Of a stretch of DNA of 64,000 bases, positions 3,783 through 52,835 are shown one piece after another. The DNA comes from Balanoglossus misakiensis. Its lineage: Eukaryota > Animalia > Hemichordata. The notes beneath the pieces were generated by a model, which saw only the letters and a list, made by a program, of their open reading frames with translations, had not been told where the DNA came from and did no database searches. The number at the start of each line of letters is the position of its first letter. Position 1 is the stretch's first letter. Position numbers and translations under genes: made by a program. The stretch covers positions 492,922-556,921 of the forward strand of contig CM082579.2 of assembly GCA_040954595.2 (NCBI GenBank), read 5' to 3'.

Positions 3783-7107
<3,325 letters not shown>

Positions 7108-8333
7108 AAGTGCAGAAGTCTCCTGTATTCACCAACTGACAGTGACCACTCCATGTTTTAGTGTTTGTTTCTTGGACCATTCCCCCCGCAAAGTTGTGAT
7201 CTTTTGCAGAGCAGTGTGAATGGTAAAAGTGTCACAACCTTCATCAACCTGTGAGAAAAGTCCCACATAGTCTCTCATGTTGATATCTATATACTAGTAT
7301 CCAAGACCATTTCTATATGATAACGCAAAATGGTACAATGTTTTTAAGAGATTCTTTTATGTCCATCAAATAGTTCCAACACTCAGTTTATCAGTATGTT
7401 TCCTCAGGACATGTAATGTGTTGGTGGTAAGAATTTTGTCATCTTGCCCTTTGATACATAACACAGTAAATAAAGTTTCTGGACTGAATAGCCAGGTTCT
7501 CAATGTTGTGATGTACATATAGCTTTTTAGATGATTTCTTTGGCTTTTGTAGTGCTATTATGTGAAGAGGGACAATAAAATTGTATACCAAGTAACATGA
7601 TGGACTTGTATGTGTACCTTTGTTTAAAGGAAGATGACCAGGACTGTGGGCGCACAACCCAGCACACAATAGGTCATTTTCATATACATGTACTGGTCAG
7701 GATTCTTGGGACACTTGTGAAAATGATGGCTTTTGAACAAGTTCTGTTACTTTGAATGCGGGTATATTTTATTGATATCTAAATTCCACATCTTTGAAAC
7801 GAAGGCAGAAGATAATATCCAAAAGGCTCACCAAAATTTTAATGATGAAAGACGAAGAGTACATCTACAGAATTATTTTTATAAAGGCTAGTAACAGGTT
7901 TTGATCAAATTGTAAGTAACTTTTGAAAACTGCAAATTGGTATTGGCAGATGATTTTGGCTCAAAACTAATTAGCGTACTTATTCCAAGTTTGTTACACA
8001 ATGAAAAAACTCATTTCCTATTAAAAGGTGATTCATCTCAACATGCTAACTGAATCGAAGCACAACATACATTTACGCGCACTTTTGAGCACATCAGATG
8101 CACCCTTGTCACCATTTCAGTCATTGAATAATGATAATGACAACGCACAAAACAGCGAACATTTTAATGTGGATCTGTAATTACAGTCAACTGACATGCA
8201 TGGAACAACATACAAGAAGCAATGAACAAAATGCAACAGTATAACTTGTGAATTAATTTATTTCTGTGTCTACGCAAGTTTTTGCGTGTCTAGGAAGGGC
8301 CAGCCCATTCCTAGAAACTCACAAATACAAATT

Positions 8334-9374
8334 TTATTTATTACTTCCACCATGTGGAGCACGGTTCTCTGGCAGATGTTTGTGGTCGTGATTTCTTTTA
8401 TCATTTCTGTTAGTATTTGCAATTTTCAGCTTCTCTTTCAGACCAAGGCGTCTACGTTCAGCTGCCTTGTAAGCCCTCTTCAGCTTAGCCCACATCACCT
8501 CTGCCCTAGAAATAAAAATACATACAGTCAAAAGGCAGGAAAGAGCATAACTAGAGACGAATAGAGTATGACTTCTCCACTTCATCTCGAACTCAATTCT
8601 GTGCGGATATCCATCTTGTGAACTTACTTGTTTGCCCTTGACCTCTCGACAGTAGTGATTTCAACACACTTATAAGATCCATCAGACTGACCCTTGCATG
8701 CAAGATTAGTCGCAGTATTGCAGCAGGCATCGTATACACCATTTGGACCAAGTGGGACAGGCAGCTCACACTATGCGGAAGAAAGAACAATTAGGATAAT
8801 AGTAACCTACATGTAGTTTGATTTCTTTTCATTTTACCCCGTTCGATCTATATTTGCATTATCTTTCTAAAGTAAACAATCCCTCACATGTAGCTTGACG
8901 TGAATATTAACTTAGTTACCCATCAGAATATCACATAAGTTTCTATTAAGTTATGCCAAACCAATGGTGACAATTAATATTTCTAGAATGAGCAAAATGG
9001 GAGACGTTTGTTCTACGTGCGCCATTCTCACGCGAGGCGTATGGTAAACTATAAGACTATTTTTCTTCACTGACTTCAGACCGACCCTGAACATAAATGT
9101 GGGTGAAAATAAGCGAGAAAACTGGATAAAAGCATAATATTGAAGTATTGCTCACTTCTTGCCCTGCTTCAAATTCAACCTCACAATTGTCGGCTAAATG
9201 ACCTCTGCGGATGAAATGAGAAATCTTCTCCATGTTCATCTCATGAGGATGGTCGCCGGAATCGTGACCTGGATTGACAGCCGACGGTAAAGCCTCCTCC
9301 TTTTTACCAAATCCTGGCTGGATGCATAAACAAACGAACACGGCCACACATCCAAGCATCGCCACAGTTTTCAT
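8334..9374 (-). CDS. Uncharacterised secreted preproprotein (177 aa) with a six-cysteine knottin/ICK-like domain
   Basis: Three exons, 9374-9156, 8770-8628 and 8505-8334, have canonical gtgag/gtaag donors, pyrimidine-rich ag acceptors and compatible phases (219+143+172=534 nt). The product has a hydrophobic N-terminus (MKTVAMLGCVAVFVCLCIQPGFG), a C-x9-C-x14-CC-x7-C-x9-C core and several dibasic sites. Confidence 0.75.
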
Positions 9375-9870
9375 GATGACGATCTTCAATCAAAACGATG
9401 CAAATTTGATTGAAAATACGATTATTTCGATGTTTTTGGCCTCAACAGTACCCGTTATAGCTGCCCGTTGTTACGTTCCAAACAATATATTCATAACGTC
9501 ATTGTGACGTAATAATTTCATGTCGTTTTCAGGAATCTGATTGGCTCAAAGTTTACATTAGGGTGACTATGCGCATGTGCATGTTTTTTTTCTTACTGCC
9601 CTAACAAATTCTTTGTTTCCAACCTTGTTGTTGTACTTAATCAATGGAACAACACCTGCTTCAAGCACTGAAGATATCTTTATTGCCTATCAACAACGTT
9701 TTGGCTCCCCGAAAAAAGCGAAAACGTTACAACCAGGCCATGCACTGGGTTTTCAACCATGCCCTGACCTCTGGCTTAAACAGCGCCATCTATGGGTGAC
9801 CTTTAACAACAGGAAGACAAAATACACGTTGCTTTAACCAACGTAAACTCGGCAGCCAGAAACCTTCAAG
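9375..9870. promoter_or_regulatory. Divergent promoter between the knottin-like gene and SPCS3
   Basis: ~500 bp separate the divergent ATGs. It contains CRE-like TGACGTAA (~9505), reverse CCAAT GATTGG (~9539), NRF1-like TGCGCATGTGCA (~9570) and CTCF-like CAGCGCCATCTATGG (9781). Confidence 0.5.
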
Positions 9871-11286
9871 ATGAACACGTTCCTTTCGCGTTTAAACACA
9901 ATATTTGCCTTCACATTGAGTGTAATGGCAGCGCTGACATTTTGCTGTTTCCTGACGACAGCATTTAACCCCGCGATCACATCTGTTGAAATAGGAACAA
10001 CAAAAGCAGTCGTGTAAGTTGCTTGACATATTGTACATATCTATTTGCATGATTTCACGAAAATAGATTTTTCGACAAATATTCTGCACCAATCTTCCCA
10101 ACGCCACTTACTCATCCCAATTCATGAGTTACGATAAGGACTATGTCTGCTGTGAAGAAACATGAACTCGGTTACTCTCTTGCGAAGATATACCTTGTTT
10201 GTTATCAGCATTCTCTGCATATTGTGATATTGCTGCAGTTTGCATCCCCTCCATCTTCCCTGCAGCAAATTGTGATTGTGATAGGCGTAGCTTACAGTTA
10301 CCACCCATCACCATATTGAATTGATCATAGAGAATTTCATTATTTAATAGGAAGAATGTAGCCAACTTTGCAGCATCCTCAAGGGAGAAGAATGACCTGG
10401 CACAGGTGGCCTTTGACCTCCATGTTGACCTCTCACCTATGTTCAATTGGAACACCAAGCAGTTATTCTTGTATCTTACTGCTGAGTATGAAACTAGAAA
10501 TAATGTAAGTATCATTGTATTTCACTCAAACAAAACTCAAAATAATTCAGAGAACATTTTTGGGAAGGGTTGATGAGACATGATATTATGGCCAACAGTC
10601 TGGGCCAGATTGTGTAGCACTTTTGAACTCAAGTCAGGTCATACAACTGATACTTAGATGGTTTCATTCTTCCACAGAAACTGAATCAGGTCGTTTTGTG
10701 GGATAAAATTGTCAAAAGAGGTGAAAACACAAAACTAGATTTCAAGAGCATGAATACAAAATATTACTTTTTTGATGATGGAAATGGACTCAAGTAAGTA
10801 AACACTTCATTGTTATAGTGGCTTGACTTATTCATTTCCTCTTATGACTGCATTGAAATCAAAAGAGGTAAAACGGTTCAGAAACCATAACATGAAAGGG
10901 ATATGGTCACCAAACATGCATATTCAGATTTAAGAATCAACCCACACACTATTACAGTTTCCAGCAGTGACATAAAAGGCAAGAAAGTTGGTTGGCAATC
11001 AAGCAGACATGTTGTTGCAATAAAGCTTCAAATTATGGATGGATTTTGATGGCTATCGACAAAGTGACACTCAGTAACTACTGATGTATTCACACCAGAG
11101 TTGTCACTGTTTTCTTCTCCACAAATTACAAACCATTTATTCTGTATTTTGTTTTTCTTTCCTAGGGGCAATGAGAATGTGACATTATCACTATCATGGA
11201 ATGTTATCCCCAATGCTGGCACTTTACCAAGACTTAAAGGATTTGGAGAACATGTCGTACACTTCCCTAATGAATACAAACAATAA
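9871..11286 (+). CDS. SPCS3: Signal peptidase complex subunit 3 (SPC22/23)
   Basis: Exons 9871-10013, 10351-10504, 10678-10793 and 11166-11286 give [32 protein letters not shown]...[18 protein letters not shown]...[13 protein letters not shown]...[30 protein letters not shown]...*. AATAAA at 11481. Confidence 0.95.
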
Positions 11287-13891
11287 CTTATTTCACATCA
11301 AAAATATTTTCAGAATTTTCTTTGTAGAAAAATTCCAAAGATATGACTGTTTCAATGTTTTGTTTGAGTTGAATTTTCTATGATTGTAATGTCTTTGTAT
11401 ATGTACAATTATAGTAAAACCTGCACACACTTCTTGCTATAATACCGACATTTATGAGTTCTGTTTTGTTGACTCGTTGGAATAAACAATTTAAAGACAA
11501 CATTGACCGATCGTTTTCCTCAGTATGCAGTTCAGGGGGGGGGGGAGTTGTCTTTATAACTCTCATGACAATAATACTTCCAGACACTTGAAGTTTCCAT
11601 AGAAACATCGTTTTTATCATTTAATTACAGCGGCGGTAGTAGTATGTTACAATGGAGGAGCTGACAGACACTGTCTCAGTGTAAAAAGAGGGTTGTGCCC
11701 CAAAAAACCTAACATCAATGGTACTACAGGGCTCTCAATCATGACGAGTAATTACATGTACATATGATTTTGAAATATAATAAATTTATACAGCAAATTT
11801 GTACAACATACAAAAAGGAAGCAGTAACTTAAATTCATGAAAGCCAAACTGTTCAAAAGTTTAGGCTGAATTGTGATGTTGGCCATCTGTCCGATCCGAG
11901 CAATCGCCAGATGGAATGCACCATTGCTTGAGTGTCCGTCACTAGAAGTTGATAGATTACAACACGGCAAACAATGAAACTCTGTCTAGATGACCTCACT
12001 CCAACATTTTACAAATCACTTGCAACATATAACATTTTTCTTCAAAGACTTAGAAACTTGTGAATACAAGCTTTCTCCCTGGACACAATGACGGCTCATT
12101 CGAAGCTCTTTCTTACCAAGCCAGAAATAGGATGACGTTTCAATGGAGTGTTAAGAAATTGCTGCACTTTGCTGTCCATGTGACAAGTAATGTTGGCCTA
12201 CACATTAGAGGTTGGCTTTGTCAACTATTGCAATTGAATATCATGATTTGTACACTTCAATAAATCAGTAAATGGATTGAAAAAAATGCAATATAAAAAG
12301 ACAAAAAGTGTACAACAAAAACATTACAATATATTGCATCTACAACTGGGAAGAGACTTTTAATCCCTTGGTCACCCTGTGTTCTCTCAACAATGGTATG
12401 GTCTTACGAGTTCACTAGACAAGTCCATTACAAGGAGGGGGCAGAGGGAGTCCGCTAACTTGCTGTTCTGCTGATGATATGTCATCATCAAATAGCTTGC
12501 CATTTTGAGAACTGGTCAGTTTCTTCAGTCAGTTTGTATTGGTGCATGTCAAAATTATACAATTCAAGGCTCATGTGAGGAGCAACCTCTTGAACGGAAT
12601 ACAAATTCATATACCCTGGACGTTTTCAATGCAAAGTGCCCTGAAATGTTATCTTTCTGGGGAAAGATATATACACGTAAAACATATTTGACCCTTGCTA
12701 TATCATGCCTCTACATCAAATGATCATCATGGCAGACATTTGGCTCCCAGTGATGTTCTGATGACAGTCTGCATAGGACACTTTCATGACCCCTATGTGA
12801 CCTTTACATCATGGCATTTGGTTGGTATCACGATTTCACCAGTTTGAGTTAAACTCCAGATCAATCATACTATTGAATGTGTGCAGAACAAAAAAAAATG
12901 AAATTTGTAGGTTACAAGACTGAATATTGAATGATATAAAAGTGACATACCAGAGTAACACCAAGATGTAAGGTCACTTATGGGTCATGAAAGAGCCCAA
13001 TTGTGAGGCTATTAACTGACTTGTAGCCATTGGAAATTTGTGTCTCAGAAAGGGTCAACTCTCTGTTATGATGACTGGCAGTGCATTTACTTGAATAAGA
13101 ATAAGGACTGTAGAACAGCAGTGAATTGATTTCAAGAACAAGGAATATCTAAATGTGCCCTTTTCTCAGTTGCCATGGGTCTCCCAGACAACGGCCAGTT
13201 CTTTCAAGTACTTGGTAACATTTTCAGTTCTGTAGGAATGTTTCACTCAGAGTCACAATTTCTGAGGCAGGAACTGATTATTGTGCCAATACATTTCATA
13301 AATACCAGTTTGAATGACAACTTGACGGGCTGACTTAAAACTAAAATGTAGTGTACACCACAGGTTTTAATTTAAAATTGACAATACATTTTAGCTGTAG
13401 GCTAGGTATCAAAACAAAAATATTCTAAAAATCCTCCATTTAGCCTTTACAGACTCAGTTTTTGGAGAAACATCTGGTTTAAAAAACTGTTATTACTAAG
13501 AATTTGTCAGGTTGTGGACAACATCAATCAAGTGTATGCAGCAAGTTTTGATAAAATACATTTCAAATAGAGAAAACAGAAAAAAAAGTTTGGCTGTATG
13601 TACATGAATTATTTGACAAGAACATGTACATTCAGAAATCAGCAGACATACCCCCTTTCTTCCCTTGGATTCAACAGATGCTGACTTTATACTCTCTCTG
13701 GTGACTTTACCCCTACGGAATAGACTCATCAAAGTGCCCCCTTTCTGGCCTCTTCATCAACCATCCATCTATATCTGCCTTCCTGTATCTACAAACAACT
13801 TGGGATCAAGGTATGTCTCTAGGGTGTGGCATTTTGAGTTCACTTATGTACAATCATGCCAGGTGATAACCATGTGACCGACATGTGACCA

Positions 13892-29869: not shown

Positions 29870-32363
<2,494 letters not shown>

Positions 32364-34280: not shown

Positions 34281-36755
34281 ATGGCGGAAAAGTTGCCTGT
34301 CGAGGTAAGTTTCGGGGGAATTTTTTTTTCGTCCAAAGCCAAAATACAGGTCATCTAACGCGTGACCTGCGTATTTTAGTGATGTGTGATAGGTAGACTT
34401 GAGTATGCTAATCCTAGCTCCAATGAAGTATCTGCCACTGGCGTTACTCACAGTTGGAATCACTGACTGCGACCTGAAAATAATTATTTTCAGGTGGAAT
34501 CAAACACACAGGTGCTTAAAAATAGGGTTAGGGACTTAGGGGTAGGGGTAAAAATATTATATCTGTGTGTGGGTGGAGGCTCGCCGTAACAACACAGCCC
34601 TGCCACGCAGAGCTAACTCACAAATGACACTGCACCACTCGACAGTGACAATATTGATATTAAACTTCAATGCTTTTAATTTATTAAAGACCTCTCACAT
34701 CTTAGGTGAAAATTAGCATATTTGATGGGAAATAATCACCGAGCGAAGTTATAAGCAAACTGTAACTTTTGCTTCTCTTGTTCACAGGTGATATCTTATA
34801 TCATGAGATATCTGAGCGTGTCTGACCGAAAAGATGCTGCTTTGGTGAACAAGAAGTGGTATGAAGCAGCCATGGATCCAGTCTTGCAACAAGACATCAT
34901 TCTGACATTCCAGACTCCATCCATGAATGATGGACCCATTATTGGTTTCGGAAGACGAAAAAGTCCAAACCTGGTTCTCAACAACATTGATGGTTCATCA
35001 CACTCAAAAGCCATCATTCAGAAAGCTTGTCAGTACATGGGAATGAACTTGACCTCGCTGTCACTCAAAGTGTCAGATATCACTGAAGGGACTTTCATGT
35101 CAATAGTTCCATATTGCCATCATCTTAGAAGTCTTGACCTTAGCTCGTGCAATAGCTTGTTTATGTCTGGAAAACTGCTGGAAAAGGCAAAAGACAAGGA
35201 GGCGTTGAAAGAAGCTCTAGAAAATCTGAAAGAATTAAATCTCAGCTCAATAAGGTTTCTATCAGATGCCCTCTTCTGTAGAATGGTGTCCTGCACACCG
35301 AACGTAGAGAAACTGTCACTTGCATCGTGCCTTTTGGCTATTGAGTTTGACCCCTACAGAGGTCGCAGAGGTCGTGATTCAGAATCTTTGCTGACTTTTT
35401 CAAATGTCTTGAAATTTGTCCAAGAACACAAAACAACACTTAAGGGTTTGGATCTGAGTAGAACAGCTGTAACTAATGAATGTCTCACGTCACTCGTCAA
35501 AATACCAGGATTACAGCTGAGAGAAATTTCTCTGAGAGCATGCAGAGACATCTCTGATGAGGGCATAGCTATTCTTGCCAAGTCACAAACTGGTCTCAAG
35601 AAAATTGACATCAGTTCGTGTCAAGATTTGAGAGATGGGTCGCTGGTTGCAATCCAGCAACATGTGACTGATCTGGAGCACTTGAACTGCGCCAAGTGTC
35701 GTTACATCAGTGATGCAGCTGTGGTGAAGATGAATTCTTCACTTCCAGGCCTGACCTACCTCAACTTGTCCGACTGCTACCAACTGACATCAGTAGGACT
35801 CACCAGAGGGCTCTGTTCTGGCACTGCTTCCAGCATTGTATCCCTGAATCTAAACTGCTGCAGTTTGGTTCAAGATGACCTTGTATTGGCCATGTCAAAG
35901 GTCATGAAGCAGCTGGTAGAGCTTGACCTTGGCTCCTGTTTCCCACTGACGGACAGGAGTGTTAACATCATCGCCAAGTCATTTGGAAGGCTTCGAGCAC
36001 TGAGACTGGCATGGTGCAAAGAGATCACTGACTTTGGGCTTCTGGGCTTGGAGAAGTTTATCTATCAGGATCAAGATGAGGAGACGAGAGATGAAGGCGT
36101 ACAAAACACGCACCAAGGCATTAAGATGAACACCCCAGGAAAGCCCAATGAATACAGCAGTGGTCGATTTTCCCGGAATTACTGCAACATGGGAATGTTC
36201 AGTGCCCCTTCCGATGGCGACAGAAACCCACCGCAGAAAATCTCATTCTCTGATGTGGAAAAAGAAATGCGTAAAGATAAGAATACAGCTATTTACATGC
36301 TGAAAGGGTTGCAGAGTTTGAGTCTCAACGCCTGTCAACACATCACAGATGTTGGCATTTCTGGGGGAATTAAATTCCGTGAGTTGAAGCGACTCGATCT
36401 CAGCATGTGTCCGAAGTTAACGGATGAAGGTGTGAAGATGATCTGTCAAAACAACAGAAGCCTGGAAGAGTTGCATCTCAGCCAATGTCAGAAAATCACA
36501 GACATCAGCATCACCATGATTGCCAGGAACTTGATCCGACTGCTTCTGCTTGACCTCTCAAGCTGTGACAGCGTGACAGATCAGTCCCTGGTTGTTCTTG
36601 CTAAGCACAGCCGCCAGCTGAGGCACCTCAACTTGTCAATGTGTGGTCAGATCACAATGGAAGCAGTAGACAGACTCACTCACACCATGAAAGATCTATC
36701 TGTGCAGGCTCAGTATGTTGGTGGCACCCTGGACTATGACCTGTTTGCCACCTAA
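34281..36755 (+). CDS. F-box/leucine-rich repeat protein (LRRC29/FBXL9-like), 2 exons
   Basis: Exon 1 (34281-34304, MAEKLPVE, gtaagt) splices to exon 2 (34788-36755), giving the F-box LPVEVISYIMRYLSVSDRKDAALVNKKW followed by many cysteine-containing LRRs (LxxLdLsxCxxitD). Subfamily assignment is from recall of the architecture only. Confidence 0.88.
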
Positions 36756-39876: not shown

Positions 39877-42800
39877 TTAGATTGTCACTTCTTGATCAGC
39901 CCCTGATAGTGAGGGGAGAATTACAATTGCTGATGATCTTGGAGATCTCTGTGGTGTGCTAGCACTGGACTCTGCAGCACTACTTGGTGCTGTACTGATA
40001 CCCATTGGTGTTACCATGGGTGAAATCGATGGAGTCCGGTTTGCAAGAGGCGAAAGCGAAGGTGAGAAATTCGGTGACATGGCTGGCGAGGTAAAATTAC
40101 TGTCTGGACTGATGGGAGATCTTGGAAACATGTTGACCGAGGCACCTTGATTGATACGACCCTGATTCATTGAAATTGCTATGGGTTGTATTGGTGCCAC
40201 ATGTCCATGGGCGACTGTTGTCAACAACGGTGGTGGGAAATTTTTCACTTTTGGTGACAATGAATGTTTCTGTCTCTGATGGGATCTGTGATCCTCAACC
40301 TGTTTTTTCGCGATGCTTTCATCTTTTAATTTTGCGATTTCAGCAAACACATTTGCCAGGGGCTGAAACTGTGGCCCCCAATCCAGTAAATAGTCCCAGT
40401 TGTAACTTCCCGAGAATTCCTCATCACTATTGACGATGGAACTAAGTGAACCTGCCATCGACGGCTGTCCATCATCACCCATTCCAAACGCTCTTGTGCC
40501 ATCCATGATGGCATTGTTTTCCTCTGTGCCAACTTCATGCAGTTTTGCATCAATGAACGTTCCCAAGTCAACTCCACGCTCTTCTCCACCACCTTCATCA
40601 CCAAAGATGTGCATGCTCTCCACGCTCTGGTTGAGAACTTTGTCACTCTTGGGCACACTGACCCCGAGACTTCGCAGAACCTGATTGGCAGATTGTTCAT
40701 TGACTGAGAAATCTGAAATGGCATCTTCGTCTGGTTGAATTCCTGAATCTGGTTTACGATGATGAACAGTGTGATGGCCAGGATGGTGATCTAGTATAAC
40801 AGATTTCTCATTTATCATTCGTATTTCTTCATCTTCAACGCTTGCTGATCCCCGTCCACTGGAAGTGGAATTGGATTGATCAGAGACATCCGTGCGTCCA
40901 ACTTCCATTGATGTGTTTGGAGAATGCATCCGTGTAATCTGCCTCATTCCATTCATTCCGTACATTGCCGGGATGGTTCCATTTGGAGGAACATCTATCA
41001 GATGATGTTCTGTTTGGTCTGGACTCATTACGATTGGATCGAACGCATCATGGTCGTACGAATGCGCAGTTCGTCCACCGTCTGGAGGTGGACTCTGGGC
41101 TGCTGGTTGTGGTCTCTTCTTGCGTACATAAATCGTTATCAGAACGATCACCACAATGACAATTGTAACTCCTGCAATAATGGCAAATACAATGACCAGA
41201 GCCAAAGGGATTCCAGACAATCCGGTTGAGGGCTCTGCACCCGGGCAGGTGGCACAGTTGGAGTCCACAGTCACTTTACTTGTGCAATGACCTTGCAATG
41301 ATGTGGCTTTGCTGGACATGGCGATAATACCCAAATCATAAACATCTTCACTGGATCTTGCGTATCTTTCACCACCAACGTCTCGCTTCCTCCTGCTCTC
41401 CACAAACAGCTCCTTCACAGTAATGATTCCATGCGTTTCATTCATATGGAAGTTTGGATAGTCGGCATCAAAGGAGTACAGCACCAAACCATCTGCACGA
41501 TCATCTTCGTCAGTAGCACTCACTTGACCAACCACATCGCCAACCTCAGCATTGACAGGAACACTGAATTCATACAGAGTTTCAGTAAAGACAGGATCAA
41601 ATTCATCAACTCCGGTGATGGCAATATTTGCTGTAACTGAAGCATCCTTGCCTCCGCTGTCAGACACTTTGATAGAAATCACATATTCCTTCTTGTCCGT
41701 CTCAAAGTCAAATTTCTTTTTACTTATTACATCACCAGTCTGTGGATTTATCGCAAAGAACTTCTTGTCTTCACCGTCTTCTATGGTATATGTAAGGATA
41801 CCATAAGGACCCCTATCATTGTCAATTGCATGAGCCGAGAATATGTAGGTATCCACTGGTTCTTCTTCAGGTAGAGATTCCAGATACATCAACACGGGAA
41901 AGAACGGAGAATGGTCGTTTTCATCTGTGACGTAAATCACGACCGTGGTCAAACGATGAAGAGGGTTGTCAACACTGCTGTCTGTTGCCGCCACCGAGAG
42001 GCGATGAACAGATTTCTGGGTGTCGTGGTCCAGTCTTCCCTTCACAGACACAACTCCACTGGTTTTGTTCACTTTGAACAGATCCAACTCATTCCCTGAG
42101 GTAATCTCGTAACGAACCTGAGCGTTGGAGCCATCGTCTTCGTCGGTTGCATGCACAGTCAGAATGGACATCCCAGAGGGCGCTCCCTCACTGATGGTGC
42201 CTTCATAAGAAGTTGCATTGAACACTGGTGCATGGTCGTTGATGTCTGTGACAGTCAGAACAACAGTGGTTGAGTCATTGAGTTTGGGTTGACCTCTGTC
42301 AGATGCCTCAATGATCAACGTATATGTTGTCTGTGTTTCTCTATCCAGGTCACCCATCACTAAGATATTGCCTGTGTCTACTTCCACTTCAAACATTCCA
42401 TCTTCATTTCCCTCCACAATCCTGTAATAAATTTCTTTGTTTTCTCTTGCATGATCGTCATCCTTTGCATCCACAGACAACACCATGTGACCTTTTGGTT
42501 CTCCCTCACTCACTTCATCGACATACAGCTCACTATTAAATTCTGGGGCATGGTCGTTGATATCGATGACTTCAATGCGTACAGCAACAGAACTGGACAG
42601 GGCTGGCACGCCTTGATCTGTTGCCTTGACAACAAGATGCACAGTTGGCTGGCTAGGGTTGAATGTCACTATCTCAGTGGTGTAAATAATCCCTGTAAAT
42701 CAAACAAACAGGTAGACGTTGAAAAAGAATTCTCATTCAAAGTGTTTTCTGGTTCTGAATTACTTTTTAACATTGTCACAATGTCAATCACTGGCAATAG

Positions 42801-45800
42801 TTTGATGATACTGGAAATGCTTTCACATTATGTACAAATGATTCTCTCATCAAACATCAGACTTGAGACGGTAACAAGGAAAGCATCTCACCTGTTATTT
42901 CATCAATCCTGAATCCTGGAGTGAGAGCAACATCCAGACTGTAATGGATTTCAGCATTGGAACCTGAATCTCTATCTTCTGCAGTCACTGTCAGCACAGA
43001 CACTCCTGCTGCGGTTGTCTCGATTACATCAGCCTGGAAAAGAAAACAAGCATTAAAATATAATGTTGACATCACTTAATCATGATGTCATTACCAATGC
43101 AGTGTTCACTGTCAAAGAAACCCTGTTTACTACACTTAGGCAACTGAAATAGTTACTCGTACTGTATATTTAGTTGGAATATTCTTGTAGCTATGAATTC
43201 ATGTATTCATTCCTGAAATTATCCACATTCTCACCTCGTATGAATTCTGCGTAAATTCTGGAGCATTATCATTCTCATCTTCCACAGTTACATCTAAATC
43301 CAATGAAGTAATATGCTTCCCATCAAGACACCTGATCTTCAGAATGTAATCCTGTCGTTCCTCGTAATCCAAAGCTGCTGCCAGAGTTATAGTTCCACTG
43401 AACTTGTCAATACTGAATCTGTCATCAGGATTTCCACCATCAGCAAAGTCATATGATAATACTGTCTGGGCATCAGCATCATTGGCTGATACTACAGTTA
43501 CCATGGACCCAACTTCAGCATCTGAAAAAGAATCAATTAACTGTTATTTTTCTCTCATTTACTTCATGGCCGGCTACTCTCCTGTTAATGTATCAACATG
43601 TAACAAATTGTGATTCAAAACACATCACAGCCCATGAACTGAGCAAACCTGGCTGACTACACACCTTCCTGAATCTTGACACCACTGTGAGGGTTGAATG
43701 AAGGTTTATTATCATTGACATCAACAATTTTTATCTTCAACATAGCTGTACCCGTCATTGCTGCTTGGTCATTTCGGTCAACGGCCTCCAGAGTCAGTTT
43801 GTACATGTCATGGATTTCCCGATCTAATGAGAATGATGTTGACACCACGCCTGTCTGGGCATCGATGGTAAATGCACTATCTGTGTTTCCATCAATAATG
43901 GCGTAGGTGATGTCGGTATTCTCGCCTATGTCTCTATCGGAAGCAGACACCTACAAAAACATAAAACATGAAACATTTTTACAAACAAAATCAAAAAGAG
44001 AATGTGACTTTGATTCTTTCTATGGAAACCCAGCTCTGTCAGACTTACCTGAATGACAAAAGTTGCCCTCTGTTCATTCTCCCAAACTTGAGTGGCATAT
44101 TTGTCCTGGATGAAAATTGGTGGATTATCATTGATGTCAAGGAGCTCCACCCAGACTGTTGTGTATCCGTACAGATTTGGTGCTTGTTGGGCAGACACAG
44201 CTAGTCGCATCTTGGGAGCTGTCTCTCGGTCCAGTAAATCAGGGTTTTCTACTGTAATTTCACCTGTAAACAGAAAGATAAGCTTACATGGTAATACAGT
44301 ATTTCCAATGACACCTGACATTGTAATGTGTAGAAAACCTATATGGCACTGATAATCACAAGAACATCAATATTCATGTCTTGCAAAATTAAAAATTGGA
44401 ATAATTTCTCTCGCTTTCAAACATACCTGTATTTGCGTCGATGGCAAACACAGCATCTTCATTTCCATGTGATATTGCAAACGTAGTCCCTGCTTGATAA
44501 TCAATCAACTCATCTTTCATGTCAATGACAGTGGTTCCTCTAGATGAGTGTTCAGTTACAGCCACATTGTACAAGTCACTCTTGAAACGTAAATCTGGCA
44601 TGGCATTATTCACCCGGATTTCAGCAATACCTGTTGACAAACAGAGACAGATTTATATGAGTGCAAAATCTGTGTTCTAGTGGAAAGTCTGTCTTTTGTA
44701 GTGAGTTAATGAACTTTTCTAATCCCTTATTTTTTATTAGATATCCATAATTATTTTCAGATTCCAATACAGGGATTTAAATGTTAGGCATCTGTCACTT
44801 TCTTCAGCATCATACATTTATTCATTGAAATCAAATCTGTGCCATATGGAACTGGATAAACTAAAAAAATGTCTGAATAATGGTGTTTGTCAAAATGATA
44901 ACGGTGTTCAAATATCTGTGCTGAAGCCAGAAATTTCTTTCATCCACACCCACACTCCTACTAGCCTTGTAAAAAGGAGAGCTTTCTCTCAGGTTATTTA
45001 TAAATCTTATGCCTCCAATATTGTATCATTATCTTACCTTCGCTGCTCAACACTGGAACACCATGATCTGTGGCCATAACATCCAATCTATAGACTTCAT
45101 CAGTGTGAGGAAGTTCTGCTTTCACTACAATCTTTCCATCATCACGAACAGTGAAATATGAACTGCTACCAATCAGGCTGAAAATATATCAAATTATATT
45201 ATACAACTGTTCACAATCATAAAATGACATGATTGTACATTTGGCATAAAGAGCAATAAATAATTTGAACATGTGTTCATATTATTCAAGGATGCATGAA
45301 GACATGCTTGATTCATGGATGAAAAGGCCTAAGTGGAACCTAACAGAAGCTGTATCTACCATGTTGGAAAGTACAGATTGTTTTCAGTTTACCTGTATGA
45401 AACTTCTGCATTGGTGCCTTCATCTTTATCAACAGCTGTCAGTTGTATGATTTCAGACCCAACTGATATTGTGCTTGAAATGTTAGCTGTGAAAGGAACT
45501 GATGTAAACACTGGCGCATTATCATTGATATCTGTAATGATAACACGGACTTGTGTTCCTGATGACATTGGGTACGTCACACTTCCATCGGTCGCATTTA
45601 CTTCAAAGAGGTATTCAGCTGTGGTTTCACGATCAAATTCCCTGTGGAGTGGAATCAGACAAAATGAAATTGTTAGATACAATTATTCATCAAAATGAAT
45701 GAAGCACTTATTGTTTATGAGATAAATGCCTATGGTCTTACCTGACTGATGTTATTACTCCATTGACATTGTCGATACGGAACATATTGTCTGATAAATT

Positions 45801-48800
45801 CTCCAGTGTATACATGATCTCTGCGTTGGTGCCCAGATCGGCATCAGTTGCAGTGACAGTTAACACTGTGCCATTGATGGGGAAATTCTCTGCAATGGAT
45901 TGGACGTAGGGTGTGTTTTGAAAGACTGGAGCGTTGTCGTTGATGTCCACAACAGTGACAGTAATAACCATAGAACTGCTGAGGGGATTAGTGGCATTGT
46001 CTTGAGCCGTGATTTGCAGCTGATATTGATCCACAGTTTCACGATCCAGAGACTGCGATGTCGCAAGAACACCTGTGACTTCATCCACCACGAAGTGAGA
46101 ATCTGAGTTACCATCTGCAGAAGATCAAAGAAAAACAAAAAGTCAGCCACTTCAATGTCTGTTGGACCTTTACAAATGGAGTTCCACTGCCTAAGAACAT
46201 TGAGTGCACAGGTGTAAACAGACCAATGTAAAACTTTAATGCAAAGAAAGCAATTTTGTGACAATGTGCATACCATACTACCACAGTCAAAATGAAGAAT
46301 GTTCTTACCTGTGATGAAGTATCTGATTTCAGCATTCCTTCCGTCATCAGCGTCGCTGGCGGCAACCACGTGGAGAGCAGTGGCCAGGCCGTTCTCAGGC
46401 ACAGAGATGGAATAAGTGCTTGATGCAAACACTGGAGCATGGTCATTCTCGTCTGTTACACTGACTGACACAGTGGTTGTGTCATACAGCGCAGGGAAGG
46501 CGACGTCACTGGCATACACTGAAAGAGATACAGATTCAGTTTGTAGATGGAGAGACATTCTGGTCAATGGCCGCACATGATAGTACAACCATCCTGATGT
46601 GTCTGATGAAGATACTGGAATACAATAAAACTACGTGCAAACATGAAAGCAAATCATACACCTAAGTACCTGTCACAATATAAGATGGAGTGGCTTCTCT
46701 ATCCAGAGTGTCACTGGCATAGATGTCGCCTGTTGTGCTGTTGATCCAGAACATATCATCTGCAATGTCATCAGGGATACTGTAGGTGATCTCTCCATTG
46801 GTGCCTGCGAGAGAGAGAGAGACAGTGGAATTTTAGTATAATAGGCATGTCCATTGGATACACATCATTAAAACCATCCTATAAAAATTCTCAATTAAGA
46901 AAGCCTTGAAAATATCACCGGTCAGGTCAGGTGAGACATGGTTTGCAAATAACAATGGCAACCAACAAAGACACTCACCAATATCAGCATCTGTAGCATC
47001 AACTCGTCCAACAAAGACATCTGAACCATAGTTTTCATTGACAGACATTGAATAACCATCACTAACAAACTCTGGTGCATTGTCATTGACATCTTGTACA
47101 TTGATCACTAAATACTGAAAGCTTGCACGTGGTGGGTTGCCTCCATCTGCTGCAGAGATGTTGAGTGCATACGTATCAACGACTTCTCTGTTGAGAGGGT
47201 CGACCAAAGTGAGAAGTCCTGTGTCATGTTCAATGCTGAACTTCCCAGCATCATTACCAGAGACAATGTCATAGACAATGTGTCCATTCTCACCAAGGTC
47301 AGGGTCTAATGCAATGATGTGAATGACAGGGTAACCCACTGGTTCGTCTTCCATGATGTACGTCAGACTGCGTGAGGTGAACTTTGGACTGTTGTCGTTT
47401 TCATCTTCAATGACGATGCGAGCTGTTGTTGTACCGAAGAGGGGTGTGTCTGGTGGGTCTGGTTGGTCTTCCGCTTGGACCACCAGAGTGTAAGCACCAA
47501 ACGCTTCCCGGTTGATGAGATTGATGGTGGTCAATTCGCCAGTGAGTGGATTGATCTCAAACATGGTCTGGTTGCCGGACTCTTGAACGATGAAATAATA
47601 CAGCTTGGCGTTGTTCCCACTGTCTGCATCTGTTGCTAGAATGGTGCCCACCGTGTGCCCAATGGGGACGTTTTCTTTGACTCTCAGCAAGACGGGATCT
47701 TTTTCAAACTGTGGTGCATTATCATTGAGGTCATTGATGTAGATGTGTACAGTGGTTGTAGTTCTCCGTGGGTTGCGAATACTCATATCTGTTGCTTGGA
47801 TTGTCAAGACATAGCTGGCACATAGTTCATAGTCTGTATAATCAATGGTGAAGATTTCCCCAGTGGTACGATTCACCTCAAATGTTCCATACGGATCGCC
47901 ATCAATGATGTAATACAGGACTTGACCATTATTTCCAACATCCGCATCGTATGCACTCACATAGCCAATGCTTGTTTTCGGTGGCACATTTTCATCCACG
48001 GTGAAGGAATATGTTGAGTTCACAAATTTGGGGCTGTTGTCATTCTGGTCCAGTACTTCAACATACACAATATTGACCGTTTCCCTGGGAGGGTTCCCGT
48101 GGTCTCTTGCTGCGACTGATAACACATATATATCTTTCTCTTCTCTGTCCAACGAAGCACGTGTTCTGATGTCGCCAGTTGTTGCGTCCACTTTGAACAT
48201 AGACACACCACTAAGTTCATCCCCTTCAAAGAGAAGAAAAGCCCAGATTAATATCATCCTGACTCTCCTGGACAACATGATCAACATAAATGGGGTCAAC
48301 ACCACAAAACAGGACAGAGGTGTCCCTGCTTGCTTGTTGCATATAGCTATTATACACTGTAATGGTAGATTACAAATGGCACAATTTATTAAATCATAAA
48401 TGTATGACAAGTGTATTGAAACATGTCTGAACCAATCACAGCATTATGAACAATTCTTATTGAGAGTGCTATGCATACATTTCTATCTCTGGATGCATAA
48501 CAATCTTGGTTTAGACAAGTCTGTGTGTACGTGCATGTCTGTAGAGGCAAGGAATCTTGAGAGGAAAGAAAAGAGGGGAGGGGACAGAAAGAGATAATCG
48601 TGAAGTTTTCTGATGAATTTTAAAGATGAAACGCCTTCTCATTATATTACAAAATAACAAAATCATTAACTCTATTTTTAAATGCAGTTATCAAAACTGC
48701 AATCCCCAATCACCAATTTCTAAAAGTATCTATTGCTAGCAGGAGCTATCAAAATTACTGATATTTTACTCTACAAAAGCTTTGTGATTGTACAAGTCCT

Positions 48801-51800
48801 ATGCGTTTTACTGGTAACTGCAATACAAGTACATGTACTTCTTTTAAAAGTGCCTATGACTATGTTTATCTACAACAATCAAACAAACACTACTGTACAG
48901 TCAATGTGAGGATAAGCATGCACTAAAACTGACTGATGTGTAAGATGTTTTGATCTGATTTACAATTATGTTCAGTCTCTCAGTAGAAATTACAGTAAAT
49001 ATACACAACACTGAAAGAGTAACACTCTATAATTTAGGAAACCTACATGTTTGTCAAGTAATAGTGCACACTTATTTCCTGTGTCAACTGTGTTTTTCAC
49101 ACTGTCTTTTTTGTGCTTACGTTTACATTGAAAGGAACAGCTACTATGGGCTTCGTGTCTCAAAGCTTCCTGGTCTAAAGGGGACAAGAATTAGCATCAA
49201 GATTGTCATGTCAGAAATACTTCTCTTGGTTATTTGAATTTTCATTGACGGAAGAGTTTGTTCGCCACAATAAAGTGGCACAACACAGCTACTTTGTGAC
49301 ATTGCTTAGATGAAACCACAATAAGTTTGAAGGTTTCATGCATGGTTATCAAGAGAGAGTCTTTCTTCAGTTGATCAAATGATGCTGTTAGGGTAACTTA
49401 AGAAACAGTAGATAATACAGTAGAGATTATTACAGAAGAAAAGCCACAGAGTTTGGATAAGTACAGATAAAATCATTAAACAAAACAAAAACAGAGAAAA
49501 TATATTGAGTGTTGATTTGTAATGTTAAGTACATGTATCTTTACAGATCAAATTCATAAACCTCCGATCTGGTTTGATAGCCATTTCATGACTGATACCA
49601 AATGCCATTTTGGTAGCAAATATCTTGTAGTACTTACCTGTGACGATATGATACGACACCAAACCATTATCTCCGCTGTCCGGATCTCTAGCACTGACAC
49701 GGATGACTTGAGTGTTTGCCGGTTGATCTTCCAGGATTTTGGCAACGTAGTGGTCTTTATGACGGAATTCTGGAGCGTTGTCATTTTCATCATTTACGCT
49801 GACATATAAAGTGGCTGTGTCCTCTTTTGGATTGATGCTGTGGTCAGTCACTGTCACTGTCAGTTCATAACTGGATTTTTCTTCTCTATCAAGAACCACC
49901 TTGGTTGTTACAACACCTGCCAGGAAAACAGGGGTAAATGTGTAAGAGAGGAACGACAATAAATAATTCTTCAAAATGCAATATTTCAATGGTCAAAAGA
50001 GGATGGAAAGATTCTCTTTGGAAAGGAAGCAAGTTCAAGTCAACATACCTGTGTTTGGATCGATGTCAAATACATCATTGGTTTGAATCTGGAAGCTGAG
50101 TTGAGCATTTGTGCCTTTGTCTCTGTCAGTTGCACTGACTGTTCCAACCACTGAACCACTGATTTCATTCTCATCAATATTGAAATAGTAACTCTCTTGC
50201 ATCATCTTGGGAGCATTATCATTGACGTCATTCACATGGATGATGACGGTTGCGGCTGCACTCTGAGCTGGAGTGCCATTGTCCTTCGCTTCAACTTCCA
50301 GAATGTAATCCGATGTCATCTCTCTGTCCAACTCTTTCCTGGTGTACATTACTCCAGTGTCTGGGAATATTCCAAAGTTAGCCGTGTAGGGACCGGGTTT
50401 CAGCTTGTAAGTGATACGAGCATTACTGCCCAGGTCGCCATCTGTGGCCGACACCTGCAAGAACTCATTACCGATTGGCCAATCTTCAGACACGCTGATT
50501 TCGTACGATGGGGGATAGAATTGCGGGCCATGGTCATTCATATCTTGAACATAGATATTAATAGTCATGTTGGTGGCAAGTTTTGGTGTTCCTCTGTCCG
50601 ATGCTTCCACTATCAACTCATATCTACTCTGTGTGTCGTAATTCAGAGACTTTAAAATCTGGATCTGCCCAGTTATGGTGTTGATGCCGAACAATCCATT
50701 GAAATCATTTATAAGTCTGTATTGCACTTTTCCATTATTACCACTATCCCTGTCTGTTGCCACGGCTACAAAGAAAACTGATCCCGTCATCAAGGTTTCT
50801 GGAAGAGACTTAACAGTCACAGTGGATTCAAATTCTGGTGAGTTGTCATTGATGTCAATGATGGTCATATTGACGAGGGCACGACCGTGAGACGGTGGGT
50901 TTCCGCTAGATGCCTGGATGTTTAGCAGGACGTAAGGATGGGCCTCATAGTCTAGAGCTGAGTTGATGGAAAGAACACCAGTTGTTGGATGGAGATAGAA
51001 ATAACCATCGGGATCCCCAGAATGGATGGTGTATGTGATGCTGTCATGGTTACCTGGGGGAAGGAGAGAAAATTAAAACTTGTTGGAAGTGACATCATTA
51101 ATTTCTTTCAATACTGACAACTTCTGATGACTCAAAAATTCACATTCAGTGAAAACTGCTGAGATAACTCACCAGGATCAGTATGTGCTGCATGAACAGT
51201 ACCAATGACGGAAAATCTCTCCGCATTCTCCAGAATCCTAAAACTGTAACTTGGTTGATCGAATTCTGGAGGGAAGTCTTCTGCTCCGATGACACTAACA
51301 CTGACCTCAGCATTGATGAGGGAGACCAAGCCCCCTCCATCTGTGGCTGACACTGTCAGTTCATGTAAAGACTTCAACTGGCGATTCAACGATCCAGCCA
51401 GACGAATCATACCTTGGATAGAAAGAGTTTCAAGAATTCAACTGATTAATCTCACGAATACATTTGCATTTTTGGTGCAACAGCATCAAGATGCGACTAA
51501 AACCTTGGTGTTATTTCATTCACAGTGAATATGCTAAGATTCTCTCAGGTGAAAATTTAAAAACCAACCATATAAATCATTTTCAGTGACCAATAAATTG
51601 TTTTACTGATAGTGAGAGTTTACTTACCATTTCTAGAATGAATAGTAAATATTCCATCACTGTTTCCACTTATGATGCGATAGGAAATTACTCCATAAGC
51701 ACTTGCATCTTTATCTGTGGCTGTTACTGCAACCACTTCACTGTTCACTTGACTGTCTTCACTTACATCAACTACGAGAGAGAAACAGTTTTAAAGTGTT

Positions 51801-52835
51801 AGAGAACTGTATACGCAGCCATGTCCAGCTGCTCTAATACATGTCACTTAGTTTGAATGAAGTTCCTGAGATGACCATATCACTTCTATTTAACACAAAT
51901 GCACTCTACTCTGTCAGTCTTTTAAAAGCATCTAAACTATCCACCAAAGTCAAAGATACCGTGAAAGTAGGCATTTATTCGCACAATACAGTTGCCTTGA
52001 TGCCTAATTTGAAAATTGGACGGGTGCTTGGTGTTGGGTTGAGAATCACTTCTGTCAATAAGGATTATAATCTGACCATGAAGAGAATTGAGTTACTCTA
52101 CAACAGTATTAACTTTGTATGAAAGCCAATTAAAATCTGACAATATGTTTCTGTCAGGCATAAAACCACAGATTAGTTCAGTCAAGTGATTCACAGTGCA
52201 ATGTATCCATTTCAACTCTTGGCAGTTTTTTTGGAAAAGACAACGCCTACAGGATGGTTGTAGGCACATACTTCATCCTGGGATACTTTTCAAAGACAGG
52301 ACGGTGGATGGTTTTCAAATGAATCAGACGCCATGTGTGTAACTGTGTGACATACAATGAATTTATCAACACTAAAAGGTCAAACCAAACAAAAGTTGGA
52401 ACTAGTTAATTCTCTCTTAATATCATTTTGATTTCACGGTAATTCAATGTGCAAGTCCCTTTTATTTGACCATCTGGTATCACATCTCGGCCTTCTATGT
52501 CAAATATTTCACAATCACAAATGTAACGGTGATCATTTTTGTTGGCATACTATCTCACCTGCATATGTTTGTGGATAGAATATTGGTCTGTTGTCATTGA
52601 CATCTATGACAGTAATTTTCACCAGAGTTATAGAGTCGAGACCACCTCCATCCACAGCCTGCACAGCAAATTGATACGAGCTGCCTCTCTCATCTCGATC
52701 CAGCGCCATTGTTGTACAAATCCAACCAGTATCACTACGGATTACAAATTCCGGTGGAGGAGAGCTGCCAAATCCTTGACCAATGGAATAAGTGATTCGA
52801 CCAAATTCACCAGCATCCAGGTCACTTGCTGAAAC
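39877..52835 (-). CDS. DCHS1: Dachsous-type protocadherin, 3' portion (5' exons lie beyond the window)
   Basis: Many cadherin repeats (LDRE, DxNDNxP, AxDxD) occur across exons from 52835-52559 to the terminal exon 42692-39877. There is a TM segment (IPLALVIVFAIIAGVTIVIVVIVLITIYV) and the Dachsous intracellular motifs SSGRGS and GSLSSIVNSDEEFSGSYNWDYLLDWGPQFQPLANVFAEIAKLKD. Probably co-orthologous to DCHS1/DCHS2. Confidence 0.93.

What the first reader, a model, noticed from the sequence alone, without database searches (positions are those of the whole stretch)
8334..9374. Hidden 3-exon orphan gene: secreted preproprotein with an inhibitor-cystine-knot-like core between dibasic sites
Seen in sequence: three exons splice in frame to MKTVAMLGCVAVFVCLCIQPGFG-KK-EEALPSAVNPGHDSGDHPHEMNMEKISHFI-RR-GHLADNCEVEFEAGQECELPVPLGPNGVYDACCNTATNLACKGQSDGSYKCVEITTVERSRANKAEVMWAKL-KR-AYKAAE-RRR-LGLKEKLKIANTNRND-KR-NHDHKHLPENRAPHGGSNK*. 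The middle exon carrying five of the six core cysteines does not appear in this frame in the ORF track. Established: C-C-CC-C-C is the cysteine framework of knottins (framework VI/VII conotoxins, spider ICK toxins, the core of agatoxin-like peptides), and RR/KR are prohormone-convertase sites. Inference: processing would release a ~70-aa disulfide-knotted peptide plus short basic peptides, so this could be an undescribed neuropeptide, toxin-like or antimicrobial precursor. I do not recognise it as a named family. It sits between two housekeeping genes.
Basis: partly seen in the sequence, partly recalled or inferred. Interest (0 to 1): 0.8.

Follow-up and report, generated by a model that had tools for sequence, protein, structure and literature searches.

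The report
Acorn-worm cystine-knot-like secreted peptide gene
An acorn worm carries a three-exon gene, shared with an unnamed gene of the related Ptychodera flava, for a small protein predicted to be secreted, whose conserved six-cysteine core likely folds into a toxin-style knot and most likely acts as the worm's own signalling peptide rather than as a venom.

Summary
The gene model is right: three GT-AG exons in frame, 177 codons. The host is an acorn worm. It is not a strict orphan: one full-length relative was found, Ptychodera flava XP_070552395.1 ('uncharacterized', 175 aa), collinear with all three exons and with identical cysteine spacing C-x9-C-x14-CC-x7-C-x9-C. No other relative, Pfam family or solved sequence relative was found. 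A low-confidence model of the core (pLDDT 59) gives only weak fold matches (Z 2-3.6), mostly knottins, also Bv8, Dkk1, IGFBP-5; disulfide pairing is untested. The core is acidic (-6) and better conserved than the signal peptide; the tail is basic with conserved dibasic sites. Best reading: a likely endogenous knotted ligand released from a basic tail; mucus defence peptide is the main rival. No expression data. The scan had not noted this gene before.

The parts
9156..9374 (-). Exon 1 (residues 1-73): signal peptide, His-containing spacer, conserved short helix, first core cysteine
   Evidence: 44/73 identical to P. flava, no gaps
9306..9374 (-). Predicted signal peptide, residues 1-23 (MK, hydrophobic 5-17, small residues at -3/-1, followed by two basic residues in both species)
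   Evidence: Kyte-Doolittle 11-residue mean up to 3.0 (window) and 2.8 (P. flava); helix 5-17 in model; SignalP not available
9207..9230 (-). Conserved amphipathic segment, residues 49-56 (EKIS.FIR), directly before the proposed RR site
   Evidence: 7/8 identical; hydrophobic moment 0.78 / 0.68; helix 48-56 in a low-confidence model
9204..9209 (-).
   Evidence: P. flava has RG
8771..9155 (-). Intron 1, 385 nt, GT-AG, phase 0, falls immediately before core Cys II
8628..8770 (-). Exon 2 (residues 74-121): core Cys II-VI, predicted beta-hairpin, variable linker with a conserved single Arg
   Evidence: 26/46 identical; strands in models
8666..9185 (-). Six-cysteine core C64-x9-C74-x14-C89C90-x7-C98-x9-C108 (spans intron 1); net charge about -6 in both species
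   Evidence: 36/51 identical over residues 58-108
8506..8627 (-). Intron 2, 122 nt, GT-AG, phase 2; possible in-frame alternative acceptor at 8550
8334..8505 (-). Exon 3 (residues 121-177): basic, predicted helical tail (net +10; P. flava tail +17) with KR, RRR and KR sites and a His-rich end
   Evidence: (25/49 identical)
8279..8325 (-). Hairpin in the presumed 3' UTR just after the stop codon
   Evidence: z -3.1, 0 of 200 shuffles; region picked after seeing the repeat; single copy in window
8257..8262 (-). Candidate polyadenylation signal AATAAA (another, ATTAAA, at 8168)
9375..9870 (.). 496-nt head-to-head interval shared with SPCS3: CpG-rich, paired CRE-like half-sites (9495-9512), CCAAT box (9540), no TATA match; likely bidirectional promoter
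   Evidence: CpG o/e 0.97 against 0.46 for the window; SPC22 domain from 9871; motif names recalled

Best explanation
This is a conserved three-exon acorn-worm gene whose product is predicted to be secreted and likely trimmed by prohormone convertases to free an acidic six-cysteine domain, which likely folds as an expanded knottin/disulfide-directed hairpin and most likely acts as the animal's own extracellular signalling ligand. Steps. Shown: intact reading frame over three exons; a collinear orthologue in Ptychodera flava; identical cysteine spacing; acidic core; basic tail with dibasic sites in both species. Predicted: the signal peptide is removed after Gly23; the core forms three disulfides around a C-terminal beta-hairpin; the tail is helical. 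Inferred: convertases cut mainly on the C-terminal side (the conserved Arg after the core, and the conserved RR and KR pairs in the tail); the mature domain begins upstream of RR56-57 and keeps the conserved EKIS.FIR helix; the basic tail is a holding segment that binds the acidic core or polyanions (granule matrix, heparan sulfate) and keeps the ligand stored or local until it is cut; the freed, protease-resistant core then binds a receptor or ion channel on the worm's own cells (neural or coelomic). My odds: real gene 0.97, secreted 0.93, ICK/DDH-type fold 0.75, endogenous signalling role about 0.45.
For: Orthologue XP_070552395.1 aligns to all three exons. Residues 49-108 are 43/60 identical against 27/60 for the rest of exons 1-2 (Fisher p 0.005, boundaries chosen after looking); signal peptide 13/23, so the core is the best-kept part, the reverse of the conserved-signal/hypervariable-mature pattern of venom families (recalled). 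No paralogue in the window and only 1 protein of 208 candidates passed in the profile search, so no sign of a toxin-like expansion. Core net charge -6 in both species. Fold search: 27 of 48,161 chains reach Z 2 or more; 23 of the 27 are knottins by my recall of the entries, among them the endogenous ligand AgRP, and 4 are DDH/colipase-type; best Z 3.6, rmsd 2.8, 39 aligned (PcTx1). Acorn worms have PC2-type neuropeptide processing (PMC10508912, passages). Precedents for endogenous knotted peptides: CCWamide/agatoxin-like neuropeptides (PMC8557429) and starfish injury-induced DDH peptides (PMC11891777).
Against: No expression, peptidomic or activity data. Only two sequences, so conservation statistics are weak: the best 26-residue window (21/26) is reached by 3037 of 20000 permutations, core against spacer p 0.11. 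The core model has mean pLDDT 59 and the full-length model 44; no fold hit is significant (Foldseek best E 1.7; none at Z 5 or more). The window protein has no canonical dibasic site directly after the core (RSR; P. flava GRR), so the two species might release different products. Overall identity (70/120 in exons 1-2) is below that of a neighbouring housekeeping protein (75%), and no Glandiceps or Saccoglossus relative was found although both proteomes are in the collection: fast evolution also suits a defence peptide. The CpG-rich, CRE-like promoter can be explained by SPCS3 alone.
Confidence: 0.45

Rival explanations
1. Mucus or body-fluid defence protein of the modular knottin-plus-cationic-helix kind (works like spider CsTx-1 or horseshoe-crab tachystatin): the basic tail binds or damages microbial or predator membranes and the knotted core blocks a channel or enzyme; the acidic core would mask the tail until cleavage.
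For: Tail net +10 / +17 and predicted helical; the three best language-model look-alikes are spider peptides, the first of the Toxin_35 family (score 0.79); tachystatins among the weak fold hits; modular knottin-AMP toxins are described (PMC6832493); restricted distribution.
Against: A score of 0.79 is within what shuffled proteins reach. The tail's hydrophobic moment is not above shuffles (188 and 1498 of 2000 reach it) and its mean hydrophobicity is low; conserved dibasic sites would chop the helix; the core is acidic, conserved and apparently single-copy.
Confidence: 0.25
2. A stand-alone half of the colipase/prokineticin/Dickkopf fold: the six cysteines correspond to C5-C10 of that fold, keep its II-V and IV-VI bonds and close a new I-III bond (the pairing recalled for vertebrate CART), so it would modulate a prokineticin-type receptor or LRP5/6.
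For: Foldseek ranks Dkk1 first (E 1.7, 28% identity); VIA lists Bv8 (Z 2.2, rmsd 4.1, 46 aligned), Dkk1 (Z 2.2, rmsd 5.1, 45 aligned), U33-TRTX-Cg1c (Z 2.4) and IGFBP-5 (Z 2.1). The C-terminal subdomain of this fold has a long loop, 17 residues in SF22 against 4-6 in most ICKs (10.1101/485722), like the 14-residue loop here. The two x9 spacings and the L-x-C...DG..C end resemble prokineticin (recalled, not tested by alignment).
Against: No Pfam Prokineticin, Dickkopf, Colipase or CART match at E up to 10; six cysteines, not ten; no AVIT or RFP signature; adjacent CC instead of C-x-C (recalled); knottins align with lower rmsd.
Confidence: 0.12
3. Secreted protease inhibitor or matrix/metal-binding component (mucus, burrow lining, coelomic fluid) that is not a receptor ligand: the knot is an enzyme-blocking scaffold and the His-rich and basic parts bind metals and polyanions.
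For: Knottins include protease inhibitors (PMC6832493 section 2.4.1; SOTI-III among fold hits); His content is kept in spacer (3/25 in both) and C-terminal end (4/21, 4/22); the N-terminal dibasic site is not conserved.
Against: No match to any inhibitor family; conserved KR followed by N-H looks like a convertase site; no repeats typical of structural proteins.
Confidence: 0.15
4. Chance assembly of short frames or a dead gene.
For: No transcript was seen here.
Against: Collinear, gap-free orthologue with all six core cysteines and open frames in both species; canonical splice sites and exon-like GC.
Confidence: 0.02

Closest known systems
Ptychodera flava XP_070552395.1 (uncharacterized protein, 175 aa; P0126)
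   Same: Same length class, same order of parts, identical cysteine spacing, 70/120 identical over exons 1-2 and 25/49 in exon 3; recorded on a contig of the same length (50,616,078) as the P. flava orthologue of a gene in this window.
   Different: RG instead of RR before the core; GRR after the core (possible amidation signal) where the window has RSR; about four more residues before the tail helix. No function or name; accession in 0 papers of the library.
Inhibitor-cystine-knot peptides (PcTx1, Hc3a, tachystatin, AgRP C-terminal domain)
   Same: C-C-CC-C-C order; predicted hairpin carrying Cys V and VI; weak structural matches.
   Different: Much longer loops (9, 14, 7, 9), acidic core, medial position with a 69-residue basic tail; pairing unproven; no sequence match.
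CCWamide / agatoxin-like neuropeptides of protostomes
   Same: Three-exon gene, signal peptide, spacer, knottin-like peptide, endogenous role proposed.
   Different: They have eight cysteines, a C-terminal amidated aromatic residue and the mature peptide in the last exon; here six cysteines, core split over exons 1-2, long tail.
Starfish KARTESH/CHUPA (KASH2, DDH fold)
   Same: Ambulacrarian, signal peptide + spacer + convertase site + disulfide-braced hairpin, lineage-restricted, function unknown.
   Different: Four cysteines, 28-48 residues, C-terminal, acidic spacer, reported from echinoderms only.
Prokineticin / Bv8 / Dickkopf CRD2 (colipase fold)
   Same: Weak fold matches to the model; long loop in the C-terminal subdomain.
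   Different: Ten cysteines in two subdomains, AVIT or RFP signature; none present here.
Modular spider toxins of the CsTx-1 type (knottin + cationic helix)
   Same: Order of parts: knot-like core then basic helix.
   Different: Acidic core, tail not clearly amphipathic and cut by dibasic sites, no venom context, no sequence match.

Membership tests
Inhibitor cystine knot (ICK) fold | Six cysteines in the order C-C-CC-C-C | tested here: met
   C64, C74, C89, C90, C98, C108 in both species
Inhibitor cystine knot (ICK) fold | Antiparallel beta-hairpin carrying Cys V and Cys VI | tested here: inconclusive
   Strands 39-43 and 49-53 of the 57-residue model contain these cysteines, local pLDDT 64-75, mean 59
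Inhibitor cystine knot (ICK) fold | Disulfides I-IV, II-V, III-VI with III-VI threading the ring (PMC6832493) | not testable with these tools
   Model coordinates are not returned; needs disulfide mapping or NMR
Inhibitor cystine knot (ICK) fold | Short loops as in the scorpion ICK consensus CX6CX4DCCX2-4K/RCX3GX4-6C (PMC3694633) | tested here: not met
   Loops are 9, 14, 0, 7, 9; this excludes that subfamily, not the fold
Inhibitor cystine knot (ICK) fold | Significant structural match to a solved knottin | tested here: inconclusive
   Best Z 3.5-3.6, rmsd 2.3-2.8, 37-39 aligned; none at Z 5 or more
CCWamide / agatoxin-like peptides | Eight cysteines in the mature peptide | tested here: not met
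   Six core cysteines against eight
CCWamide / agatoxin-like peptides | Mature peptide C-terminal, in the last exon, ending in an amidated aromatic residue | tested here: not met
   Core is medial, in exons 1-2, followed by a 69-residue tail
Prokineticin / astakine / Dkk CRD2 (colipase fold) | Ten cysteines, bonds C1-C4, C2-C5, C3-C7, C6-C9, C8-C10 | tested here: not met
   Six cysteines
Prokineticin / astakine / Dkk CRD2 (colipase fold) | N-terminal AVIT (chordates) or K/R-RFP-K/R (ambulacrarians) signature | tested here: not met
   Neither motif in exon 1 or in P0126
CART peptides | Pfam CART match; C-terminal six-cysteine domain with C-x-C (features recalled) | tested here: inconclusive
   No Pfam hit at E up to 10, but HMMER filters drop weak matches; CART not among the 27 fold rows, which does not exclude it
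Echinoderm EH-like (np11/np15) six-cysteine precursors | C-terminal six-cysteine peptide with eclosion-hormone cysteine positions | tested here: not met
   Core is medial with adjacent CC and a predicted beta-hairpin; no Pfam eclosion match; EH spacing itself recalled
KARTESH / CHUPA | Four cysteines, C-terminal peptide after an acidic spacer | tested here: not met
   Six cysteines, medial core, spacer near neutral (-1 / +2)
Modular knottin-AMP toxins (CsTx-1 type) | Amphipathic cationic C-terminal helix | tested here: inconclusive
   Cationic and predicted helical, but moment not above shuffles (188/2000, 1498/2000)
Modular knottin-AMP toxins (CsTx-1 type) | Venom-gland expression and toxic or lytic activity | not testable with these tools
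   No expression data obtained
Neuropeptide precursors (general) | Signal peptide plus conserved dibasic sites on both sides of the active peptide | tested here: inconclusive
   Signal-like N-terminus and tail RR/KR conserved; site before the core not conserved as dibasic; site right after it dibasic only in P. flava
Neuropeptide precursors (general) | Expression in neurons or neuroendocrine cells; peptide seen by mass spectrometry | not testable with these tools
   No data

The most novel reading that the evidence does not exclude
An undescribed family of endogenous knotted ligands in a non-chordate deuterostome: either an acorn-worm counterpart in design of AgRP/CCWamide-type knottin neuropeptides, or a free-standing half of the prokineticin/Dickkopf fold with CART-like pairing, which would bridge knottins, the colipase fold and CART and offer a ligand for an orphan hemichordate receptor.
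Probability: 0.3. Interest if true: 0.72.

Novelty: new variant of a known kind. Interest (0 to 1): 0.45.

Why it matters
Knottin-type peptides are known mostly from venoms, plants, fungi and protostome nervous systems; in deuterostomes the examples I found are AgRP and the four-cysteine starfish KASH2. My literature searches listed no paper that describes a six-cysteine knottin-like precursor in hemichordates. A solved structure would test whether long-loop C-C-CC-C-C peptides still knot, which bears on the open ICK-versus-DDH origin question, and a receptor would add a signalling system to the hemichordate nervous or coelomic toolkit. The impact is limited by its narrow range (two ptychoderid-like species so far) and by the lack of any functional evidence.

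Tried and rejected
No RNA holder was listed for 8000-9600, so no reads were laid. No whole genome is held, so paralogues could be sought only in the window. Word-based search with exon 2 against longer proteins: no candidate. Exact look-up of the three exon peptides: 0 of 3. Full HMMER search with exon 2: 6 proteins at E up to 0.001, of which 1 is the P. flava orthologue; the other 5 are long proteins (552-1893 aa) matched in 6-13 short stretches, two inspected and found to be repetitive without the cysteine pattern, one named SprB-repeat; all 5 dropped. Profile of P0126 plus exons: only P0126 among 208 candidates. Pfam: 0 families for the exons and the core, and DUF7024 below its cut-off for P0126 (E 0.015, 15.6 against 24.4 bits), rejected. 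PDB by sequence: nothing, apart from a phosphatase at E 1.2 and 0.025, rejected as chance. Atlas: feature hits at 0.79 or less for the whole protein, none for the core; structure rows under the naming bar. Metagenome scan with exon 1: 266 pattern matches, 0 confirmed. Rfam 7000-11500: 0. CART and KASH2 are not among the 27 fold rows; absence there proves nothing. DREP families rejected on disulfide number where the passages give it (one to three bonds; the three-helix CHH type on fold). The full-length model (pLDDT 44) was not used for a fold search. No complex prediction was run, as no partner is claimed.

Full report
Observation. The minus strand of 9374-8334 holds three exons as described: 9374-9156, 8770-8628 and 8505-8334, joined by GT-AG introns of 385 and 122 nt, in phases 0 and 2, giving 177 codons and a stop. 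I translated each exon on its own and obtained the residues in the finding. An acceptor at 8550 is also in frame and would add 15 hydrophobic residues; the orthologue lacks such a stretch. No RNA run was listed, so splicing was not observed.

Host and neighbourhood. A long single-exon F-box/LRR gene at 34785-36752 is 75% identical to Ptychodera flava, 67% to Glandiceps talaboti, 61% to Saccoglossus kowalevskii and 47% or less to all other 117 rows of the 120 listed: the host is an acorn worm, likely a ptychoderid. The gene lies tail-to-tail with a LisH/WD40 gene (SMU1, name recalled) and head-to-head with the signal peptidase subunit SPC22/SPCS3. The 496 nt between the start codons have CpG o/e 0.97 (window 0.46), two facing CRE-like half-sites and a CCAAT box (motif names recalled), which suggests a shared promoter but may belong to SPCS3 alone.

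Relatives. HMMER over 1.84 billion representatives with exon 2 gave 6 proteins; 5 were long multi-stretch matches and were dropped, and 1 was a 175-aa protein at E 4.5e-10, P. flava XP_070552395.1, 'uncharacterized', a cluster of one. It aligns without gaps to exon 1 (44/73) and exon 2 (26/46) and with gaps to exon 3 (25/49); tblastn on the window finds exactly the three exons. A profile search found nothing else among 208 candidates; that search needs shared words, and the full HMMER search used exon 2 only, so distant relatives in Glandiceps or Saccoglossus are not excluded. Pfam, PDB sequences, Rfam and a metagenome scan were blank or chance.

What the two sequences say. Both have a signal-like N-terminus, the spacing C-x9-C-x14-CC-x7-C-x9-C, a core of net charge -6 and a basic tail (+10 and +17). 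After the core P. flava has GRR, the window RSR; one Arg is shared. RR and KR pairs in the tail are shared. Residues 49-108 are 43/60 identical against 27/60 elsewhere in exons 1-2 (p 0.005, post hoc), but a permutation test on the best 26-residue window is not significant (3037 of 20000) and core against spacer gives p 0.11. The tail's hydrophobic moment is not above shuffles (188 and 1498 of 2000).

Fold. The 57-residue P. flava core folded alone gives mean pLDDT 59 with a hairpin holding Cys V and VI; the full-length model is poor (44) and shows helices at 5-17, 48-56 and 116-152. Foldseek has 0 matches at E 0.001 and ranks Dkk1 first at E 1.7. VIA-align finds 27 of 48,161 chains at Z 2 or more and none at 5; 23 are knottins by my recall, 4 are DDH/colipase-type (Bv8, Dkk1, U33-TRTX-Cg1c, IGFBP-5); the second look gives PcTx1 Z 3.6, rmsd 2.8, 39 aligned. 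The Atlas lists spider peptides at 0.79 or less, a lead only, and nothing for the core alone. So a disulfide-braced hairpin of the ICK/DDH kind is likely, the pairing is open.

Mechanism. I commit to an endogenous secreted ligand (0.45). Shown: gene, orthologue, cysteines, charge pattern, tail sites. Predicted: secretion, hairpin, tail helix. Inferred: convertase cuts on the tail side free an acidic knotted domain that keeps the EKIS.FIR helix; the basic tail holds it in granules or on polyanions; the core then binds a receptor or channel of the worm. The reasons are the conserved, acidic, apparently single-copy core. Rivals: modular defence peptide (0.25), protease inhibitor or matrix component (0.15), half-colipase-fold ligand with CART-like pairing (0.12; the resemblance to prokineticin and CART sequences is recalled and was not aligned), artefact (0.02).

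Comparison with known families. It is not a CCWamide/agatoxin-like peptide (eight cysteines, last exon, amidated aromatic end; PMC8557429, passages), not a prokineticin (ten cysteines, PMC6832493 section 2.4.1 and passages; RFP signature, PMC11521371, passages), not KARTESH/CHUPA (four cysteines; PMC11891777, parts 1-4 of 5), not an EH-like np11/np15 precursor (PMC4772807 and PMC5627052, passages), not a DREP (PMC10501145, passages), and it misses the scorpion ICK spacing (PMC3694633, passages). Other passages read: PMC13311285, 10.1101/485722, PMC10508912, PMC6188537, PMC4626739. No supplements were opened. The P. flava accession is in 0 papers of the library; topic searches were seen as listings and showed no title or abstract start on this gene; most subscription papers are not covered.

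Verdict. A real, conserved, unnamed acorn-worm gene for a likely secreted six-cysteine protein with an expanded knottin-like core and a basic tail. It is a new variant of a common design rather than a new kind of system; function is inferred only. Earlier scan notes agree on the host and report several other unnamed peptide precursors in this genome, none of them this one. Interest 0.45.

Noticed in passing
window 9375-9870: The secreted-peptide gene and the signal peptidase subunit SPCS3 start 496 nt apart, head to head, across a CpG-rich interval with a palindromic pair of CRE-like half-sites (9495-9512), a CCAAT box, and NRF1-like and YY1-like motifs (names recalled).
   Followed up: partly
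window 8279-8325: Stable hairpin right after the stop codon in the presumed 3' UTR (z -3.1), single copy in the window, no Rfam match.
   Followed up: partly
window 8506-8550: In-frame alternative acceptor would add 15 hydrophobic residues with two cysteines; retention of intron 2 would instead stop the protein right after the linker and give a tail-less form.
   Followed up: partly
window 1-23300: Compact run of housekeeping genes: WD40 gene (WDR61, name recalled, minus), LisH/WD40 (SMU1, plus), SPC22 (plus), ubiquitin hydrolase (USP12/46-like, minus), ribosomal L21e (plus), LCM methyltransferase with Kelch repeats (plus).
   Followed up: partly
window 34755-36752: Single long exon of an F-box/leucine-rich-repeat protein (LRRC29-like), used to place the host among acorn worms.
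   Followed up: yes
window about 39880-54500: Large multi-exon cadherin of the Fat/Dachsous type on the minus strand, with a 940-codon frame holding cadherin repeats and a cytoplasmic motif.
   Followed up: no
window 30949-31419: Frame with a short stretch that looks like the subtilisin catalytic-Asp region (recalled); no Pfam match at E 0.01, probably one exon of a secreted protease gene.
   Followed up: no
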